A DNA stretch of 64,000 bases from NCBI GenBank assembly GCA_963816145.1, contig CAWFJP010000011.1, positions 96,001 through 160,000 on the forward strand, read 5' to 3'. The notes under the pieces were generated by a model. That model saw only the letters and a list, made by a program, of their open reading frames with translations. It was not told the origin of the DNA and searched no databases. A program made the translations under genes and the position numbers. This document shows, one piece after another, positions 45,708-52,132 of the stretch; position 1 is the stretch's first letter, and each line of letters opens with the position of its first letter. The stretch comes from an uncultured delta proteobacterium. GTDB taxonomy: Bacteria > Desulfobacterota > Binatia > UBA9968.

Positions 45708-46499
45708 TTATTGAGTCGCCCGAACTAAGCCGCCATCGATGGCGATCGTCGTGCCGGTAATATAACTCGCTCGATCTGAGCCAAGAAAAACGATCAAGTC
45801 GCCGGCTTCCTCGGCCGTCCCATAGCGTCCCAACGGCACCTCCGCCGCCATCTCCTTGTTGATTTCTTCCACCGGACGGCCCAGGCGATCGGCGCGGGCT
45901 TTGTTCAATTTCTGCGCGCGATCGGTATCGATGCGGCCAGGGCAAACGTTATTGAATAGAATATTGTCGCGGGCCAGCTCCCGTGACAGGGTCTTGGCCC
46001 AGCCGATCACCGCGCTGCGCACCGCATTGGACAGCACCAACCCGGCGATCGGTTCTTTGACCGAGTATGAAGTGATGTTGATCACTTTGCCGCCGCCGAC
46101 TTTGCGCAGATGCGGCACCGCCTCGCGGGTCATGCGCATGGTGCTCATAAAACTTAGGTTGAAAGCGTTCTGCCAGTCCTCATCGGTAAACTTCATGAAC
46201 TCGCCGGGAGGCGGGCCGCCGGCATTGTTCACCAAGACATCGACCCGGCCAAAATGTTTCGCGGTGTCGTCGACGAATTTCTTGATATCCTCCGCCTTGC
46301 TCATGTCCGCGACGATTGCCAACACCTCGCCGCCGGTTTGCTTGCGAATTTGCTCCGCGGTTTCTTTCAAGGCAGCTTCGCCGCGGGCGCAGATCGCCAC
46401 CTTGGCGCCTTCGCCTGCGAATCCCAGCGCCGCGGCCTTGCCCATGCCCTGACTAGCGCCGGCGACCAACGCCACTTTCCCTTTGAGTCCGAGATCCAT
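45708..46499 (-). CDS. SDR family oxidoreductase
   Basis: MDLGLKGKVALVAGASQGMG, NNAGGP, SNAVR (atypical catalytic motif), PGRIDT, IDGG. Confidence 0.92.
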   Translation of the reverse strand: MDLGLKGKVALVAGASQGMGKAAALGFAGEGAKVAICARGEAALKETAEQIRKQTGGEVLAIVADMSKAEDIKKFVDDTAKHFGRVDVLVNNAGGPPPGEFMKFTDEDWQNAFNLSFMSTMRMTREAVPHLRKVGGGKVINITSYSVKEPIAGLVLSNAVRSAVIGWAKTLSRELARDNILFNNVCPGRIDTDRAQKLNKARADRLGRPVEEINKEMAAEVPLGRYGTAEEAGDLIVFLGSDRASYITGTTIAIDGGLVRATQ

Positions 46500-46598
46500 G
46501 TGTGCTTTTCCCCCTGGTAGTTTTGAATGTGCCGGATACTAACAAACCCGCTTTCATGGGTCAAAATCACTTAAAGCCGAGTGATAAAACAATCACCA

Positions 46599-46844
46599 TC
46601 ACTTTTGCGCCCAGTAAATATTATCGCGAAACTGCGGACTGAGCCGCTTAATATAAAGACAGAGCATGCCATGCACGCCCAGCTGGCGCAGCTTGCGCGG
46701 ATCGCCCGAGCGTAGCGCGTCTTTCTCTTCGCTCGACAAATCGTATTGACCCAGCACCGATTCGAAGTCTTGCAGTGACTTTTGATAGGTCGTTTCATTC
46801 ATCTTCAAATCGAACAACAGCCGACTCAGATCATAGCAGCTCAT
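46599..46844 (-). CDS. Aromatic ring-opening dioxygenase LigA-like small subunit
   Basis: YDLSSEEKDALRSGDPRKLRQLGVHGML; adjacent to LigB. Confidence 0.8.
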   Translation of the reverse strand: MSCYDLSRLLFDLKMNETTYQKSLQDFESVLGQYDLSSEEKDALRSGDPRKLRQLGVHGMLCLYIKRLSPQFRDNIYWAQK

Positions 46845-46915
46845 GTTTGTCTCCAACTAGCGGCGCGATTGACGTTGTGCTTTTCCAACCCGAGGGTGTA
46901 ACCCGAAACCCGAAA

Positions 46916-47782
46916 CTAACTCAATTTCCAGCTGACAAATCCCCAGCCTGTGGCAACAAAGTCCGGCATGTAAGCGGTAAAACTCGCTTTGGCATCGCCG
47001 ACTGCGCCAAGCACCACCATCCAGTTGAGAAATTCCGTATCGCCGGCGTGCAAGAGTTCTTGAACTGAATATTCAACCAAGCTGCGCCCTTCGCCCTTGC
47101 GCATCACTTCAAGCAGCTTGTGATCGAAACTCTCGTCGATCTCGCCGATGCGCGGCGAGCCGGGGAAATGCGACAACCCGCCGGTGGCAAGGATCGCCAC
47201 TCGCTCTTTCGCGTTATTCGCCACTTCGCGGATCAGTTCACCCACTTGAAAGCAGCGCCGCGGCGAAGGCGCCGGATCGACCCAGGTGTTCACATAGATG
47301 GGCAAGATCGGCATCGTCGGCTGCGGCAGCAGAAAATACAGCGGCACCGTCTGCGTATGTTGCAACTCGACATGCTCGCCGTAAGAAAAGTCGATGCCCT
47401 TTTCCATGCCGGCGCGGAGGATCGCTTTGCCGAGTTCCTTGTGATTCTGATAATCGAACCTATGCCGGGTGAATTGCCCCTGCACTCGATCGGCGATGGT
47501 GACAAAAAACGTCGGAATATTGTTCCAGAAAAAATTAACGAACTGATCGTTGGCGACAACGATCAGTACGTCCGGCTTGGCCCGCTCTAGATCGGCGCGC
47601 AGCGTTGAGAACGCGACTTCCGCGTCATGCCGCAGCTTCTGCTGTTGCTCCAGAGTCGGACGGTTGGCCGAACCCTGCGGCGCCATGCTGTAGTGCAAAT
47701 CCATAAAATCTTCCCACTCTCGTCCGGGTTCGAGAAGAATATTCGGCGCATGGCTCGCCGCTAAGGCGGAAACTAGTGGCAT
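46916..47782 (-). CDS. Class III extradiol ring-cleavage dioxygenase, LigB family
   Basis: ASHAP, PDVLIVVANDQF, QH..TVP, ATGGLSH, FD, EFLNW. Confidence 0.9.
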   Translation of the reverse strand: MPLVSALAASHAPNILLEPGREWEDFMDLHYSMAPQGSANRPTLEQQQKLRHDAEVAFSTLRADLERAKPDVLIVVANDQFVNFFWNNIPTFFVTIADRVQGQFTRHRFDYQNHKELGKAILRAGMEKGIDFSYGEHVELQHTQTVPLYFLLPQPTMPILPIYVNTWVDPAPSPRRCFQVGELIREVANNAKERVAILATGGLSHFPGSPRIGEIDESFDHKLLEVMRKGEGRSLVEYSVQELLHAGDTEFLNWMVVLGAVGDAKASFTAYMPDFVATGWGFVSWKLS

Positions 47783-47960: not shown

Positions 47961-48107
47961 CTAAAGCATGCGATAGTTACGCACTGAAACCCAGATCGCC
48001 ACAAAGACAACGACGAGTGACACAATCGGGTGATTCAACACCCACACTAGCGCCGGTTCGAAAGCATGCCGGGTAACCCACTCAAAAGACCGTGAAAGTT
48101 GTTCCAT
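47961..48107 (-). CDS. Small 48-aa membrane protein (not in ORF track)
   Basis: MEQLSRSFEWVTRHAFEPALVWVLNHPIVSLVVVFVAIWVSVRNYRML*; GAGGTGAGG upstream; one TM helix followed by basic residues. Confidence 0.55.
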   Translation of the reverse strand: MEQLSRSFEWVTRHAFEPALVWVLNHPIVSLVVVFVAIWVSVRNYRML

Positions 48108-48533
48108 GCCGCACCCTCACCTCAATTATTTTTTACTATTCTATTACAACCGCTGCCTGCCGGGAACTACAATTCTGCTCCCATCAATTAAATTAAATGG
48201 CCGCCCGGGTTGCTCGGCTATCATTGCACAGCCATTTTTATTGAAACATGCACCGCGCGAATCGCCTCGCCGTCAGCCAAACTAACCAGCCACCTGGACG
48301 TCATTGACAAGACAGAACCATTGTCGACCCACAGTCTGTCCGAGCGTTGAGGTAATTTAGGTCAGTTTTAGATCATTTACGCAAGATATAAGTAGACTTC
48401 TGTACATTCCTGGACGAGGCTGAACAATTCTGCAAGCTTCGACCTCGGATTTCACCATCCACTCGATTACCCAAGCTCTCGTAACTACCTAAATTTACGC
48501 AGAATTCACCCACCCGAAGATATTTCGAGAGTC

Positions 48534-48549
48534 TGGCACCGCGGTTGCT
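48534..48549 (+). promoter_or_regulatory. Sigma54 (-24/-12) promoter
   Basis: TGGCAC-CGCGG-TTGCT with exact GG-N10-GC spacing, about 40 bp upstream of AAGGAG and the ATG at 48588. Confidence 0.75.
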
Positions 48550-48587
48550 CTATCGTCGGTACATCAACGCAAATAAAGGAGCATCCG

Positions 48588-48737
48588 ATGAAACTATTAC
48601 TCGCCACCATGTTCAAGAAAGTTCCCGTGCGCAAGACCAAACAGCGCGCGACGATCTGCAAACAATGCGGCACGAGAATCTACTCGTTGAGTTTTCTCAA
48701 AGCCCATCTCGAGTCCCATAATCGGAAATCGCACTAA
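48588..48737 (+). CDS. 49-aa basic protein with a classical C2H2 zinc finger (not in ORF track)
   Basis: MKLLLATMFKKVPVRKTKQRATICKQCGTRIYSLSFLKAHLESHNRKSH*; C-x2-C-x12-H-x3-H; strong AAGGAG RBS. Confidence 0.7.
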   Translation: MKLLLATMFKKVPVRKTKQRATICKQCGTRIYSLSFLKAHLESHNRKSH

Positions 48738-48762
48738 TCCATAATTGCAAGGAGATAGGAAA

Positions 48763-48969
48763 ATGGAAGTCCCGGTGATCCCGTGGAAAGTCTTTCTCGA
48801 CGCCCTTCAGCATCAGCAAGCGAGTACCTTGGAGCCTTGGTTGCGCCGCTGGTGGTTCACCAACGAAGGCGTGATTATGGAAAGCTCGGCTTGGCAAGAC
48901 ATGGTTGGTCGAATCGACAATAGCGCAGCAGACCATGAAGCTGTTCAAGCGCAATTCGAGCAGCGATAG
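48763..48969 (+). CDS. Small Trp-rich hypothetical protein (68 aa)
   Basis: AAGGAGATAGGA RBS; MEVPVIPWKVFLDAL...LEPWLRRWWFTNEG. Confidence 0.55.
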   Translation: MEVPVIPWKVFLDALQHQQASTLEPWLRRWWFTNEGVIMESSAWQDMVGRIDNSAADHEAVQAQFEQR

Positions 48970-49171
48970 TCAGCGGCCGGTCACGGCGCGCTGCAATCAT
49001 CCGCTCGCGGTGATCGTCGATCCGACCGAGCGGGAGGTGAAGGAACTCGAAACCATGCTCGCCCACTGTCCCAATTGCAGTCAATGGCATCCCGGCGACG
49101 GTCCGATCATGGCGGTACTCAACAGCACTGAAGATTCGAGTCAGAATAATTCCAACAACCATTCGCTGTGA
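48935..49171 (+). CDS. Small hypothetical protein with CxH...CxxC putative Zn site
   Basis: MKLFKRN...RCNHPLAVIVDP...HCPNCSQWH; overlaps the previous ORF by 35 nt. Confidence 0.45.
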   Translation: MKLFKRNSSSDSQRPVTARCNHPLAVIVDPTEREVKELETMLAHCPNCSQWHPGDGPIMAVLNSTEDSSQNNSNNHSL

Positions 49172-49210
49172 CACATCGAGAAAAATCACCGACACCAGGA
49201 AAGCGCAACC

Positions 49211-49477
49211 ATGGAAGCCCTAAAGATCATTCTCCCGAGCGCCGAACGCAAACCCTGCGTGTGCGGCGCCACGCTTTATCGCACAAACGTAACGAGGCCT
49301 CAGAGCGAACCGATCTGGCTCTGCTCGCGCCACTGCGGCGCCCGCGGCCACACCTACGAAGGCGCGCTGCGGCGCAAAATTAGACTGGATCTGTTGAGCT
49401 GGGGCGATCTGCGGCGCAACGCGCAGAAGTTGATTGCCGCCGACACGGAAATCGAAGATGAGTTTGTTTTGCAATAG
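49211..49477 (+). CDS. Small hypothetical protein with CxC...CxxxC putative zinc ribbon
   Basis: KPCVCGA...WLCSRHCG; AGGA upstream. Confidence 0.55.
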   Translation: MEALKIILPSAERKPCVCGATLYRTNVTRPQSEPIWLCSRHCGARGHTYEGALRRKIRLDLLSWGDLRRNAQKLIAADTEIEDEFVLQ

Positions 49478-50170: not shown

Positions 50171-52132
50171 ATGAAGTTACCGCCGGAGCAAGAAGCTATA
50201 CGAGCGAAGTGTTTTCATCCATCGGGAACGTTTGTTGAGTTCCCCTCAGAGGATGTCGAGACTTCAATCCCGGCGCGCTTTGAGAAAATGGTAAGAACGC
50301 ATCCGCACCGCATAGCAATCAAAGCGGGAGAGTATACGGTTCACTATGACCAGCTTAATGTGATGGCGAATCGCGTGGCGGGAACTGTCATTGGCGAGGC
50401 CTCCACAGCTGCTGGACCAGTATGCATGTTGATTGATAATGGACCGGACTTGATAGCCACAATGCTCGGCATCTTGAAAGCTGGCCGATTCTTTACCCTT
50501 GTCGATGCGTCTTTTCCGAAGGCAAGAATCGACTCTACCGTTAGAGACTCCCAATCAAGGTTGCTTCTGCATCAGAAGCGGCATTCGTTGCTGGCACAAG
50601 AGATTGCGGCGGGTTGTAAATTGGTGCAAGTAGAATCTCTCGAAACTTCCGCCTGCGGCGATAATGCTGTGATGCCAATTGCGCCGACTGATCCGAGTAC
50701 AGTGATATATACCTCGGGTTCAACCGGCCAACCCAAGGGCGTTGTTCATAGCCATCGAAGTCTGCTGCATAAAACTTTGCGGCGCACCAACGCATTTCAC
50801 GTGTCCCCGGAGGATAGAATAAGTCTACTTTCCTCAGGCACGTCCAATGTGGTTTCCATTGCATTTAGCGCAATCCTCAACGGCGCGGCCCTTATCACTT
50901 TCGATACACGAAAGGACGGTATTCTTAACTTAAAGGGATGGTTACAGGCAGAAAAGATTTCTATCGCTTTTATCAGTGCGCAGTTTTTTCGAATGCTATC
51001 CGATAGTTTGACAGAGAAAGATGGCCTCCCCGATCTTCGTCTGGTTCGCCTTTCAAGCGAGGCGGCTCGCTGCGGCGACTTTGAGCTTTTTCGAAGACAT
51101 TTCCCAAAACATTGCACTCTAGTTAATGGGTTGTCGTCCAGCGAAACTGGAGTCATAAGAAAATACTTCATGGACCATAACTCGCAGATGTTCACGGACA
51201 ATCTGCCTATCGGTTATCCCGAGGAGGGCATGGAAATATTTTTGCTGGATGATAACGGCCAGCAGGTCGGGGTCGACAATGACGGCGAGATCGTGGTTCG
51301 AAGCAAGTATTTGGCGTCCGGATATTGGAACAACCCAGCTTTGAGCGCAGCCAAGTTTAAGCAGGACCCGGAGGACTCAGAGAAGCTGATTTACTACACG
51401 GGAGATTTAGCGCTGATGCGTCCGGACGGTTGCCTGATCCATAAGGGACGAAAAGACTACCGCATAAAAATACGAGGTTACGGGGTCGACCTTTTGGAGG
51501 TCGAAAAAGCTCTGCTATCGCATCCGGACATTCACGAAGCCCTGATAACGACAATAGAAAAGGAGGACGGAACTGCTCGTTTGATCGCCTATTTTGTTTG
51601 CGGTCGCCAAGGCGATGTTACAGTGAGCGAGCTACGAAACCATTTGAAGAACAAGCTCGCTGAATACATGATTCCATCGCTGTTTATCAAACTCGACCAT
51701 CTCCCTCTGACTGCAAACGGAAAGATTGACCGTAAAGCTCTGCCCAAGCCGGATCATTCGCGCCCGGAACTATGCTCGCCGTACGCTAATCCACAGAATC
51801 AGATTGAAGAGTACCTGGTGCGGATTTGGGAGGAAGTCCTTGATGTCCGCCCCCTTGGCATCGACGATAACTTCTTCGACGTGGGTGGTCACTCTTTGGC
51901 AGCGACTATGGTTGTCTCCCGCGTTATCCAACAGTTCCAGATCGACATGCCACTGAAATCGCTGTTTCAATCTCCGACCATCGCCGACATGGCCGCCGTA
52001 GTCACCGCACATCTAGGGAAAACTTTAGACGAGAACCAGTTGGAAATTATCCTAGACGAATTAGCGTCGTTATCGGACGCGGAAGCTCAGCAGCTTGTGA
52101 GCGAAAGTAATTCGACGATCACCAAAAAATAG
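50171..52132 (+). CDS. Stand-alone NRPS-like adenylation-PCP didomain protein
   Basis: A3 YTSGSTGQPKG, A6 GEIVVR...GYW, A7 YTGDL, A8 GRKD..IKIRG, A10 NGKIDR; PCP DNFFDVGGHSL; C-terminal acidic helix. Confidence 0.92.
   Translation: MKLPPEQEAIRAKCFHPSGTFVEFPSEDVETSIPARFEKMVRTHPHRIAIKAGEYTVHYDQLNVMANRVAGTVIGEASTAAGPVCMLIDNGPDLIATMLGILKAGRFFTLVDASFPKARIDSTVRDSQSRLLLHQKRHSLLAQEIAAGCKLVQVESLETSACGDNAVMPIAPTDPSTVIYTSGSTGQPKGVVHSHRSLLHKTLRRTNAFHVSPEDRISLLSSGTSNVVSIAFSAILNGAALITFDTRKDGILNLKGWLQAEKISIAFISAQFFRMLSDSLTEKDGLPDLRLVRLSSEAARCGDFELFRRHFPKHCTLVNGLSSSETGVIRKYFMDHNSQMFTDNLPIGYPEEGMEIFLLDDNGQQVGVDNDGEIVVRSKYLASGYWNNPALSAAKFKQDPEDSEKLIYYTGDLALMRPDGCLIHKGRKDYRIKIRGYGVDLLEVEKALLSHPDIHEALITTIEKEDGTARLIAYFVCGRQGDVTVSELRNHLKNKLAEYMIPSLFIKLDHLPLTANGKIDRKALPKPDHSRPELCSPYANPQNQIEEYLVRIWEEVLDVRPLGIDDNFFDVGGHSLAATMVVSRVIQQFQIDMPLKSLFQSPTIADMAAVVTAHLGKTLDENQLEIILDELASLSDAEAQQLVSESNSTITKK

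What the first reader, a model, noticed from the sequence alone, without database searches (positions are those of the whole stretch)
48480..49477. Sigma54-driven operon of four tiny proteins, three with putative zinc-binding motifs
Seen: a textbook -24/-12 element (TGGCAC-N5-TTGCT, 48534-48549) followed by four co-oriented small ORFs. They are 49 aa (C2H2 finger), 68 aa (Trp-rich), 78 aa (CxH...CxxC) and 88 aa (CxC...CxxxC); three have purine-rich RBS-like motifs. A non-coding stretch of about 400 bp upstream could hold enhancer sites. Established: sigma54 promoters need a bEBP activator; none is encoded in this window. Inference: a dedicated, signal-activated microprotein module (stress, developmental or regulatory) that I cannot assign to any known family. 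This is my best candidate for an undescribed system here.
Basis: partly seen in the sequence, partly recalled or inferred. Interest (0 to 1): 0.78.

Follow-up and report, generated by a model that had tools for sequence, protein, structure and literature searches.

The report
Sigma54-driven zinc-finger microprotein operon
An uncultured soil bacterium (Candidatus Binatia) carries a conserved, enhancer-dependent switch in front of one to four tiny zinc-binding proteins whose core member looks like a single eukaryote-style C2H2 zinc finger; they are real genes, but their function is still unknown.

Summary
The -24/-12 element at 48534-48549 is the only exact match in the window (0.01 expected). 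It is kept at 48-54 nt before the first ATG in 33 of 34 distinct related loci.

Upstream lie a conserved tandem-dyad enhancer-like block (48399-48437) and an IHF-like A/T element. The genome has one rpoN and about 34 bEBP genes, none in the window.

All four ORFs are under purifying selection (median dN/dS 0.08-0.28), and their Cys/His ligands are invariant in the aligned copies. Only the 49-aa C2H2 protein (o1) is always present. The other three occur in all eight possible combinations and are decaying in some lineages, so the core is one gene with three optional riders.

None has a Pfam, NCBIfam, PHROG or PADLOC family. Relatives were found only in Binatia-type MAGs.

Two paralogous C2H2 microprotein families in the same genus also carry their own sigma54 promoters.

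Function is inferred: signal-induced small nucleic-acid-binding regulators. The cognate activator is unknown, and one candidate was tested and not supported.

The parts
48399..48437 (+). Enhancer-like upstream activating sequence. It consists of two dyads about 21 bp apart with half-site GNACAA. The genus consensus is TGTACAAaCTTG.cTCAA...tGGACAAatcTGG; the window copy is CTGTACATTCCTGGACGAGGCTGAACAATTCTGCAAGC.
   Evidence: In a MAFFT alignment of 32 loci, mean column identity is 0.70 in this block against 0.34-0.41 in the flanks. An nhmmer profile of the block finds this site as the top hit in the 7.8-Mb genome, E 0.0095. Its distance to the -24 element falls into two classes, 115-119 nt (8 loci) and 125-132 nt (24 loci), about one helical turn apart.
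48486..48510 (.). A/T-tract element between the enhancer and the promoter. In most relatives it reads CTGAAAA-N7-9-TTTTC, and several copies fit the recalled IHF consensus WATCAR-N4-TTR. It is degenerate in the window's own clade.
   Evidence: Alignment columns about 195-215 (consensus gAAAaataaGca.TTTtt). The assignment to IHF is inference from a recalled consensus.
48534..48549 (+). Sigma54 -24/-12 promoter, TGGCAC-N5-TTGCT.
   Evidence: Unique exact match in the window against 0.01 expected. Kept in 33 of 34 distinct loci, 48-54 nt before the o1 ATG, with mean column identity 0.86. BLASTN conservation with 9 relatives starts exactly at base 48534 (query position 435).
48550..48587 (+). Predicted 5' UTR. 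The transcription start is inferred at about 48559-48561. It contains a conserved ACATCAA box and the Shine-Dalgarno AAGGAG at 48576-48581.
   Evidence: Consensus ...GGAACATCAAatCaATTGaAGGAGCAAccgATG. The start position is inferred from the usual sigma54 geometry and was not measured.
48588..48737 (+). o1: a 49-aa core microprotein with a basic N-terminal arm and a single classical-spacing C2H2 zinc finger (C24, C27, H40, H44).
   Evidence: Present in 34 of 34 distinct loci at 73-88% identity. 23 columns are invariant, including the four ligands. Median dN/dS is 0.08. Its profile hits multi-finger C2H2 proteins and solved C2H2 fingers, best E 0.008. Pfam zf-C2H2 scores 17.3 bits, below the 25.2 cut-off.
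48763..48969 (+). o2: an optional Trp-rich microprotein. It is 68 aa here and usually 44-54 aa in relatives (up to 63 aa); the conserved core is M..VIPW.VF.DAL.KQQ..TLE.WLRRWLFTNEGV.
   Evidence: Found in 18 of 33 loci. W8, F11, L15, W26, L27, W30, F32 and G36 are invariant. Median dN/dS is 0.21. It is truncated in L003 and absent in L005. No family match.
48935..49171 (+). o3: an optional 78-aa microprotein with RCNHP...CPNCSxWxPGDGPIMAV (C20, H22, C45, C48).
   Evidence: Found in 19 of 33 loci. The ligands are invariant in the 12 aligned copies but degenerate in L014. Median dN/dS is 0.28. The AF2 model is poor, pLDDT 55.5. No family match.
49211..49477 (+). o4: an optional 88-aa microprotein with an N-terminal three-strand zinc-ribbon-like knuckle (C16, C18, C38, C42) followed by one long basic helix (residues 49-86).
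   Evidence: Found in 16 of 33 loci. It is single-copy and only ever at this locus in 16 of 31 genus genomes, and frameshifted in G017. 25 columns are invariant. Median dN/dS is 0.21. AF2 pLDDT is 80. There is no fold match: best Foldseek E 1.9 and best VIA Z 4.1, on the helix only.

Best explanation
This is a genuine enhancer-dependent sigma54 transcription unit that is specific to one genus-level lineage of uncultured Candidatus Binatia.

Inferred mechanism. An unidentified bEBP binds the tandem GNACAA dyads about 115-130 bp upstream of the -24 element. DNA bending at the A/T (IHF-like) element brings it to sigma54-RNA polymerase held at TGGCAC-N5-TTGCT. ATP hydrolysis opens the promoter, and a short leader with a strong Shine-Dalgarno gives translation of o1 and of whichever of o2, o3 and o4 the genome still carries.

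Products. o1, the only constant product, is a 49-aa protein made of a basic arm plus one classical-spacing C2H2 zinc finger. I infer that it binds nucleic acid and acts as a second-tier, signal-induced micro-regulator, in the way a single finger with flanking basic regions can bind DNA (recalled from the GAGA-factor domain). o3 and o4 are independent small Zn-binding proteins and o2 is a Trp-rich one. They ride on the same signal but are dispensable.

Status of each step.
- Shown: the promoter, enhancer block, coding status, ligand conservation and lineage restriction.
- Inferred: sigma54 dependence in vivo, zinc binding, and nucleic-acid binding.
- Unknown: the signal and the activator.
For: Promoter. 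The exact -24/-12 is unique in the window. It is conserved in 33 of 34 distinct loci at a fixed distance, and nucleotide conservation with 9 relatives begins exactly at its first base.

Sigma54 machinery. The genome has one rpoN and about 34 strong Sigma54_activat hits. It holds 46 strict promoter matches where I estimate roughly one by chance; these include one in front of a PII-like gene.

Enhancer. The conserved block has mean identity 0.70 against 0.34-0.41 in the flanks, and its spacing comes in two classes one helical turn apart. It is the top genome-wide hit of its own profile.

Coding. Median dN/dS is 0.08, 0.21, 0.28 and 0.21 for o1-o4, with invariant Cys/His in the aligned copies and a constant gene order.

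o1 as a C2H2 finger. It has C-X2-C-X3-I-X5-L-X2-H-X3-H spacing. Its profile hits 8 long multi-finger proteins, the best at E 1.2e-35 over 37 repeats. It matches a solved ZBTB17 finger at E 0.008. Its nearest Atlas clusters are 50-66-aa single C2H2 proteins, scores 0.95-0.96.

Recurrence. Two paralogous C2H2 microprotein families also have sigma54 promoters. For zfB, the strict motif is in 19 of 24 loci and GG-N10-GC is kept in 23 of 23 aligned. For zfC, it is in 6 of 6 loci plus the genome's own copy.
Against: - No transcript start is shown. RNA-library contigs cover 48339-48586, which lies upstream of the predicted start, and the library may hold DNA.
- o1 scores below Pfam's cut-off for every zinc-finger model.
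- No structure of o1 was predicted; both jobs went to o4 and o3.
- Zinc and DNA binding are untested.
- One locus (L016, genome G008) has lost the GG and GC of the promoter yet keeps intact o1 and o4. Sigma54 control is therefore not indispensable.
- The only candidate activator I could name fails a presence test.
- A single C2H2 finger alone normally recognises only 3-4 bp (PMC11241148, passage read). Sequence-specific regulation would need the basic arm or oligomerisation.
Confidence: 0.6

Rival explanations
1. The microproteins act on proteins, not nucleic acids. They would be signal-induced modulators, for instance giving feedback on their own bEBP or on sigma54-RNA polymerase, or adapting the neighbouring LigAB-type dioxygenase/SDR enzymes.
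For: Small induced proteins that modulate bEBPs are known in other systems (recalled: PspA-PspF, HrpV-HrpS). The left neighbours are kept in nearly all loci: a 48-aa membrane ORF, then LigB, LigA and an SDR on the opposite strand. o4 has a long amphipathic helix of the kind that forms coiled coils. o3 does not fold alone in AF2.
Against: The neighbour conservation is within one genus and may be plain synteny. o2-o4 occur in all combinations, so they have no obligate partner in the cassette. Nothing ties any of them to a bEBP.
Confidence: 0.2
2. They are metal-handling proteins: small zinc (or other thiophilic metal) buffers or chaperones induced by a sigma54-dependent metal or envelope signal. 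The function would be analogous, not homologous, to sigma54-dependent ZraP.
For: Three of the four products, and both paralog families, are built around invariant Cys/His quartets. Sigma54-dependent zinc-stress genes exist elsewhere (recalled: zraP/ZraSR).
Against: There is one structural-type site per 49-88 residues, which is poor buffering capacity. No metal transporter or sensor is conserved beside the locus. Residues outside the ligands are also strongly conserved: 23 of 49 columns of o1 are invariant, which points to a specific surface.
Confidence: 0.12
3. They are precursor peptides of a natural product (RiPP) or a small toxin/antitoxin set, linked to the adenylation-thiolation gene at 50171-52132.
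For: They are Cys-rich small ORFs. An AMP-binding + PP-binding gene lies 690 nt downstream.
Against: That downstream gene is not found beside the cassette in any related locus. No maturase, protease or transporter is conserved nearby. Conservation runs along the whole peptides with classic zinc-ligand spacing rather than a leader/core pattern. There are no PADLOC or PHROG hits.
Confidence: 0.03
4. The ORFs are not translated; the conserved DNA is a sigma54-dependent non-coding RNA.
For: Sigma54-dependent small RNAs exist (recalled: Qrr). The o1 region is highly conserved at the DNA level.
Against: Median dN/dS is 0.08-0.28 while dS is about 1.4-1.6. A Shine-Dalgarno sits at a fixed distance from the start. 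There is no Rfam match at E <= 1.
Confidence: 0.03

Closest known systems
Sigma54 (RpoN) promoters with bEBP enhancer and IHF-assisted looping (e.g. glnAp2, nifH, Pu; recalled)
   Same: It has a GG-N10-GC core with the TGGCAC-N5-TTGCT consensus. Dyad-symmetric sites lie about 100-130 bp upstream, with an A/T-rich bendable element between them. rpoN and many bEBPs are in the genome.
   Different: The activator, the signal and the products are all unknown. The regulated genes are microproteins rather than enzymes, transporters or surface structures.
Classical eukaryotic C2H2 (beta-beta-alpha) zinc fingers, Pfam PF00096; the single-finger-plus-basic-arm DNA-binding domain of GAGA factor (recalled)
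   Same: o1 has the exact C-X2-C-X12-H-X3-H spacing with hydrophobic residues at the consensus core positions (I31, L37), preceded by a Lys/Arg-rich arm. There is reciprocal profile similarity to multi-finger proteins and to solved fingers.
   Different: o1 is a bacterial, free-standing 49-aa protein with one finger. It scores below Pfam's gathering threshold (17.3 against 25.2 bits). It has Ile where the consensus has Phe/Tyr. DNA binding is untested.
Ros/MucR prokaryotic C2H2 zinc-finger regulators (PMC9779718, abstract seen in the listing)
   Same: Both are bacterial proteins with a single Cys2His2 site that are, or are proposed to be, DNA-binding.
   Different: There is no ROS_MUCR Pfam hit at E <= 0.1. 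o1 is 49 aa, while Ros/MucR is about 140 aa with an oligomerisation domain (recalled). The ligand spacing differs (recalled: X9 in Ros). The lineage is Binatia, not alpha-proteobacteria.
Zinc-finger micro-proteins of Haloferax volcanii, the C(P)XCG proteins (PMC11241148; abstract and passages read)
   Same: Both are single-domain zinc-finger proteins of 40-70 aa encoded as separate genes, many of unknown function. o1 carries one CxxCG knuckle.
   Different: [quoted passage not shown] There is no sequence relationship, and here the genes sit behind sigma54 promoters, which archaea lack.

Membership tests
Sigma54-dependent promoter | GG and GC doublets exactly 10 nt apart within TGGCAC-N5-TTGCW | tested here: met
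   TGGCACCGCGGTTGCT lies at 48534-48549. It is the only exact match in the window, against 0.01 expected.
Sigma54-dependent promoter | The element is conserved in orthologous loci at a fixed distance from the gene | tested here: met
   It is present in 33 of 34 distinct loci, 48-54 nt before the ATG. The exception, L016, has TTCCAC-N5-TTGAT at that place.
Sigma54-dependent promoter | The organism encodes RpoN and bEBP activators | tested here: met
   There is one Sigma54_DBD hit (212.6 bits) and 34 Sigma54_activat hits above 218 bits. None is in the window.
Sigma54-dependent promoter | Upstream enhancer (UAS) with dyad symmetry | tested here: met
   A conserved tandem-dyad block lies at 48399-48437, with identity 0.70 against 0.34-0.41 in the flanks and helical-phase spacing classes. 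Binding by a bEBP is inferred.
Sigma54-dependent promoter | Transcript starts about 12 nt after the GC and depends on RpoN | not testable with these tools
   Only assembled contigs of RNA libraries were available. They do not show starts, and one contig spans the promoter.
Classical C2H2 zinc finger (Pfam PF00096 zf-C2H2) | C-X2-4-C-X12-H-X3-5-H ligand spacing | tested here: met
   C24, C27, H40 and H44 are invariant in 16 of 16 aligned sequences.
Classical C2H2 zinc finger (Pfam PF00096 zf-C2H2) | Score above Pfam's gathering threshold | tested here: not met
   zf-C2H2 scores 17.3 bits against a 25.2 cut-off, and zf-C2HE scores 20.1 against 30.1. o1 is therefore not filed as a member, only as finger-like.
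Classical C2H2 zinc finger (Pfam PF00096 zf-C2H2) | Beta-beta-alpha fold around one zinc | not tested
Zinc binding needs an experiment.
Ros/MucR family (Pfam ROS_MUCR) | Match to the family profile | tested here: not met
   ROS_MUCR was not among the 8 weak Pfam hits of o1 at E <= 0.1.
C(P)XCG zinc-finger micro-proteins (Haloferax class) | [quoted passage not shown] | tested here: not met
   o1 has one CK[RQ]CG. o3 has CPNCS. o4 has CVCG and CSRHCG and is 88 aa. The definition is taken from the PMC11241148 abstract (listing).
Zinc ribbon (o4 N-terminal part) | Two zinc knuckles on a three-stranded sheet | tested here: inconclusive
   The AF2 model has strands 13-15, 21-24 and 36-38 carrying C16/C18 and C38/C42, at pLDDT 82-92. 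No solved zinc ribbon was recovered: best Foldseek E 1.9 and VIA Z at most 4.1, on the helix.

The most novel reading that the evidence does not exclude
Binatia have evolved a family of free-standing, single-finger, classical-type C2H2 'micro-transcription factors' (o1, zfB and zfC). Each is wired to its own bEBP through a sigma54 promoter, so that enhancer-dependent signals are relayed through 49-70-aa DNA-binding proteins. This would be a bacterial use of the eukaryote-style finger that is unrelated to Ros/MucR, with o2-o4 as lineage-specific zinc-binding co-factors.
Probability: 0.3. Interest if true: 0.72.

Novelty: new variant of a known kind. Interest (0 to 1): 0.55.

Why it matters
Classical C2H2 fingers are the commonest DNA-binding module of animals, but in bacteria they are known almost only from the Ros/MucR family.

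Here a 49-aa stand-alone finger is under strong purifying selection, sits behind a textbook enhancer-dependent promoter, and is repeated as three paralogous sigma54-controlled genes per genome.

That would give three things:
- a minimal natural system for asking how one finger plus a basic arm recognises a target;
- a handle on signal transduction in Binatia, a globally distributed phylum with no cultured member;
- a concrete example of microproteins as dedicated outputs of sigma54 circuits.

It also shows how such cassettes erode, since the three accessory genes are lost independently in every combination.

Tried and rejected
Candidate activator.
- The o1 enhancer profile's 4th-best genome hit (E 2.5) lies just after a bEBP gene (C10:17703-16423) and about 108 nt before another sigma54 promoter.
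- That second promoter, with a GTACAATTTTGTTC-N5-GAACAG enhancer, is conserved in 20 of 20 genus loci.
- The o1 profile's best hit fell on it in 14 of the 19 loci that gave any hit, out of 20 scanned, plus 2 more on the opposite strand at the same place.
- The reverse scan found the o1 enhancer as best hit in only 3 of the 28 loci that gave a hit, out of 34 scanned.
- The bEBP's N-terminal domain was not found in G007 (98% complete), G008 (99%), G003 (88%), G004 (92%), G015 or G020, all of which have o1.
- I therefore do not name it as the activator. The motifs may reflect paralogous bEBPs with related specificity.

Complex prediction. o1 was scored against o2, o3 and o4 as alignments. The verdict was 'no answer' (score 0.00, mark 0.32), which is no evidence either way.

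Metatranscriptomes.
- Four RNA-library runs, held only as low-depth assembled contigs, carry pieces at 48339-48586, 48658-48848, 48996-49316 and 49388-49473.
- One contig bridges the o1/o2 junction and one bridges o3/o4.
- One contig also covers the promoter and enhancer, and DNA carry-over cannot be excluded.
- This gives no start site and no proof of transcription. Parts without cover say nothing.

Structure.
- The o3 model is too poor to search (pLDDT 55.5).
- The o4 model found no fold relative.

Sequence searches with no informative result.
- PDB profiles of o2, o3 and o4 gave a best E of 0.025-0.39 on unrelated proteins.
- NCBIfam, PADLOC and PHROGs gave nothing.
- Rfam gave nothing.
- The Atlas search for o4 gave scores of at most 0.87, which are leads only.

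Other checks.
- The simple terminator and sigma70 scans found nothing above shuffles. No terminator was identified after o4.
- There are no paralogs of o2-o4 elsewhere in the genome at E < 0.3.
- Composition shows no island signature: GC is 0.48-0.58 across the locus and its flanks.

Literature.
- I ran 'Binatota'/'sigma-54', 'sigma54-dependent'/'C2H2'/'small protein' and 'C2H2 zinc finger'/'bacteria'/'archaea'/'stand-alone'/'single zinc finger'.
- None listed a paper on sigma54-controlled C2H2 microproteins.
- The Binatota genome paper PMC8262859 has 0 occurrences of 'sigma-54' in the listing; I saw only the listing and the start of its abstract.
- Supplements were closed and not consulted.

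Rows dropped before counts.
- One search used only pairs with 0.05 < dS < 2.5. That is 163 of 561 pairs for o1, 84 of 153 for o2, 69 of 105 for o3 and 81 of 91 for o4.
- In one search the o2-o4 sets were picked by a motif regex, which missed some copies.
- One search aligned 32 of 34 loci, because two had under 260 nt upstream.
- One search counted 33 of 34 loci, because L043 has only 493 nt downstream.

Unpublished genome. G005 (loci L015, L040, L069, L100) is included in the counts. It is not in alignments A1-A4, and no conclusion depends on it alone.
Full report
WHAT IS THERE

The window is C11:96001-160000 of a 7.8-Mb, 31-contig genome. Public relatives are titled 'Candidatus Binatia bacterium' or 'Deltaproteobacteria bacterium' MAGs from soil, wetland and groundwater.

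TGGCACCGCGGTTGCT lies at 48534-48549 and is followed by four co-oriented ORFs:
- o1, 48588-48737, 49 aa.
- o2, 48763-48969, 68 aa.
- o3, 48935-49171, 78 aa.
- o4, 49211-49477, 88 aa.

The exact pattern TGGCAY-N5-TTGCT occurs once in the 64 kb, against 0.01 expected from shuffles. With one mismatch allowed the looser pattern is not enriched, 4 found against 5.45 expected. A single window could therefore not settle the matter; comparison with relatives does.

CONSERVATION OF THE LOCUS

- A DNA search of 40 relatives found the locus in 18 of 24 same-genus genomes. It found it in 0 of 16 genomes of the two other families of the order.
- In nine genomes the BLASTN match begins at query base 435, which is window base 48534, the first base of the -24 element.
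- A scan of one genome per species (GTDB) with o1 peptide patterns gave 31 further loci. After removal of duplicates, 34 distinct loci remain.
- o1 is present in all 34 at 73-88% amino-acid identity.
- The -24/-12 element is present in 33 of 34, always 48-54 nt before the ATG.
- The exception is L016 from G008. It has TTCCAC-N5-TTGAT at that position, meaning both doublets are lost, yet it keeps intact o1 and o4.

PROMOTER ARCHITECTURE

An alignment of 260 nt upstream of o1 in 32 loci shows the following:
- A 37-column block about 115-132 nt upstream of the -24 element. Its consensus is TGTACAAaCTTG.cTCAA...tGGACAAatcTGG. Mean column identity is 0.70, against 0.34-0.41 in the flanking columns and 0.86 for the promoter itself.
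- The block reads as two dyads of a GNACAA half-site about 21 bp apart. In the window it lies at 48399-48437.
- Its distance to the promoter falls into two classes, 115-119 nt (8 loci) and 125-132 nt (24 loci). The difference is one helical turn, as expected if the face of the helix matters.
- Between the block and the promoter most loci carry CTGAAAA-N7-9-TTTTC. Several copies fit the IHF consensus as I recall it. This element is weak in the window's own clade.
- The leader holds a conserved ACATCAA box and AAGGAG or GGAGGAG 6-8 nt before the ATG.

The genome encodes one RpoN and 34 strong bEBP AAA+ domains, none inside the window.

Genome-wide there are 46 strict promoter matches. My estimate from the pattern's information content is that roughly one would be expected by chance. 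The matches include one in front of a PII-like gene.

Taken together this is a complete, conserved enhancer-dependent promoter. Sigma54 dependence in vivo remains an inference.

ARE THE ORFs GENES?

- Median pairwise dN/dS is 0.08 (o1), 0.21 (o2), 0.28 (o3) and 0.21 (o4), with median dS of 1.4-1.6 (saturated pairs were dropped, see Tried and rejected).
- o1 has 23 invariant columns of 49, including C24, C27, H40 and H44.
- o4 has 25 invariant columns, including C16, C18, C38 and C42.
- o3 keeps C20, H22, C45 and C48.
- o2 keeps W8, W26 and W30.
- There is no Rfam family at E <= 1.

They are coding.

A CORE GENE WITH OPTIONAL RIDERS

Among the 33 loci with at least 900 nt downstream, all eight combinations occur. 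The gene order is always the same.

| Genes present | Loci |
|---|---|
| o1, o2, o3, o4 | 10 |
| o1 only | 7 |
| o1, o2 | 4 |
| o1, o3, o4 | 3 |
| o1, o2, o3 | 3 |
| o1, o3 | 3 |
| o1, o4 | 2 |
| o1, o2, o4 | 1 |

- o4 is single-copy and never elsewhere in the genome in the 16 of 31 genus genomes that have it. Genomes whose locus lacks it have none.
- Decay is visible. o4 is frameshifted in G017 (L012). o3 has lost ligands in L014. o2 is truncated in L003 and deleted in L005.
- In the window's clade o2 carries a poorly conserved C-terminal extension that overlaps o3. Elsewhere it is usually 44-54 aa.

The 'four-protein module' is therefore one constant gene plus three independently dispensable ones.

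WHAT ARE THE PROTEINS?

None reaches any curated family threshold in Pfam, NCBIfam, PHROGs or PADLOC.

o1:
- It has the classical spacing C-X2-C-X3-I-X5-L-X2-H-X3-H after a Lys/Arg-rich arm, MKLLLATMFKKVPVRKTKQRAT.
- An exhaustive HMMER search of 1.84 billion representatives found only 28 proteins at E <= 0.001. Twenty are small proteins of 114 aa or fewer. Of the 13 of these that I read, 12 are o1-like or related single-finger proteins and one (P0022) keeps only the N-terminal arm. Eight are long multi-finger proteins; the best has E 1.2e-35 over 37 repeats.
- Against solved structures the best match is a ZBTB17 finger, E 0.008.
- The nearest Atlas clusters are 50-66-aa single C2H2 proteins, several of them archaeal, with scores of 0.95-0.96.
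- Pfam zf-C2H2 scores 17.3 bits against a 25.2 cut-off. ROS_MUCR does not appear at all.
- I therefore say that o1 works like a classical finger but do not file it in PF00096 or in Ros/MucR.

o4:
- It folds in AF2 (pLDDT 80) as a three-strand knuckle carrying the four Cys, plus one 38-residue basic helix.
- It has no fold relative.
- Its 254 relatives in 5.8 billion clusters are 'hypothetical', and where a taxon is named they are Binatia.

o3 does not fold alone.

Outside the genus, the o1 profile found nothing credible in 200 genomes of the phylum.

A RECURRING PAIRING

- The phylum scan also hit a second finger ORF in the same genome (C30).
- It is a 69-aa protein, here called zfB, with TGGCATATCGATTGCT 60 nt before its ATG.
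- Searching the genus with it found matches in 30 of 31 genomes, falling into two families.
- zfB: the strict promoter motif is present in 19 of 24 loci. GG-N10-GC is kept in all 23 aligned loci. It has its own conserved upstream dyad, GCACAAAAATGT, and an ATATCAA-N4-TTG element.
- zfC: the strict promoter is present in 6 of 6 fetched loci and in the genome's own copy at C13. Its upstream dyad is different, TGTCA-N4-TGACA.
- zfB is monocistronic, lying between an enoyl-CoA-hydratase-like gene and a zinc-type dehydrogenase-like gene. I judged these two by eye from the translations and did not scan them.
- Three of the 46 strict sigma54 sites of this genome thus precede single-finger microproteins.
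- The different enhancers imply different activators.

WHICH ACTIVATOR?

A bEBP on contig C10 looked promising, because a related enhancer and a sigma54 promoter lie immediately downstream of it and are conserved in 20 of 20 loci. However, its ortholog is not found in at least four genomes that keep o1, two of which are 98-99% complete. The activator remains unknown.

MECHANISM, WITH ODDS

- About 0.85-0.9: this is a real, enhancer-dependent sigma54 unit encoding translated zinc-binding microproteins.
- About 0.35-0.4: o1 acts by binding DNA or RNA as a small second-tier regulator.
- About 0.2: it is a protein-binding modulator.
- About 0.12: it handles metal.
- About 0.03 each: RiPP or toxin, or non-coding RNA.

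COMPARISON AND NOVELTY

The promoter is a textbook kind. Zinc-finger micro-proteins are a known kind in archaea (PMC11241148), and Ros/MucR is the known bacterial C2H2 family (PMC9779718). This system belongs to neither by the tests above.

New here are a free-standing, classical-spacing C2H2 microprotein family in bacteria, its repeated coupling to sigma54 promoters, and three undescribed accessory families. My three literature searches found no description of this.

I rate it a new variant of a known kind, with interest 0.55. It is solidly real and unannotated, moderately surprising to a specialist, and has no demonstrated function.

Noticed in passing
G000 contig C30:513330-513596 (-), locus L085/L087; and C13:1569-1816 (-): There are two further small single-C2H2 proteins of 69 aa each, zfB and zfC. 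Each has its own TGGCAT-N5-TTGCT 50-60 nt upstream. Both are conserved across the genus together with their promoters and distinct upstream dyads. JGI names some zfB copies 'ribosomal protein S27AE', which looks like a spurious zinc-ribbon label.
   Followed up: partly
G000 contig C10:9000-24000 (locus L052): This locus holds a 486-aa ATPase with an MshE-type c-di-GMP-binding N-terminal domain (NF053729, 61 bits) and then a 426-aa bEBP. Next comes a sigma54 promoter with a conserved GTACAATTTTGTTC-N5-GAACAG enhancer and an AAAACCAAAAACATAG box. After it lie a 579-aa and a 108-aa protein without any family, then DUF4388, sCache-HAMP and NMT1-LysM genes. The promoter architecture is conserved in 20 of 20 genus loci.
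   Followed up: partly
window 47961-48107 (-): A 48-aa ORF with one hydrophobic helix (MEQLSRSFEWVTRHAFEPALVWVLNHPIVSLVVVFVAIWVSVRNYRML) is conserved at 39-79% identity in nearly all related loci. It sits between the LigB gene and the o1 enhancer, divergent from o1, and has no family match.
   Followed up: partly
window 45708-47782 (-): An SDR, a LigA-like gene and a LigB (extradiol ring-cleavage dioxygenase) gene are conserved to the left of the cassette in almost every locus. The right flank, with an AMP-binding + PP-binding gene at 50171-52132, is not found beside the cassette in any relative.
   Followed up: partly
locus L016 (G008:C45:1-300): This is the only locus where the promoter has lost both the GG and the GC (TTCCAC-N5-TTGAT), yet o1 and o4 stay intact. 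G008 also lacks the C10-type bEBP. Only 149 nt of upstream sequence are available, because the contig starts there.
   Followed up: no
G000 C15:21054 (-) and C29:370907 (-): Two strict sigma54 promoter matches precede small proteins of 91 and 67 aa that begin MKK..T.IK.LTLAE.A.ILKISKRTLHRMIQHRQIPAFKVGGQWR. By eye this is an excisionase/MerR-like helix-turn-helix. It hints that small DNA-binding proteins are a common output of sigma54 in this genome.
   Followed up: no
window 48550-48587 and aligned loci: The leader may form a small hairpin around the ACATCAA box (for example ATGGA-ATATCAAA-TCCAT in L006 and GTGGA...TCCAC in L018). I saw this by eye and did not fold or test it.
   Followed up: no
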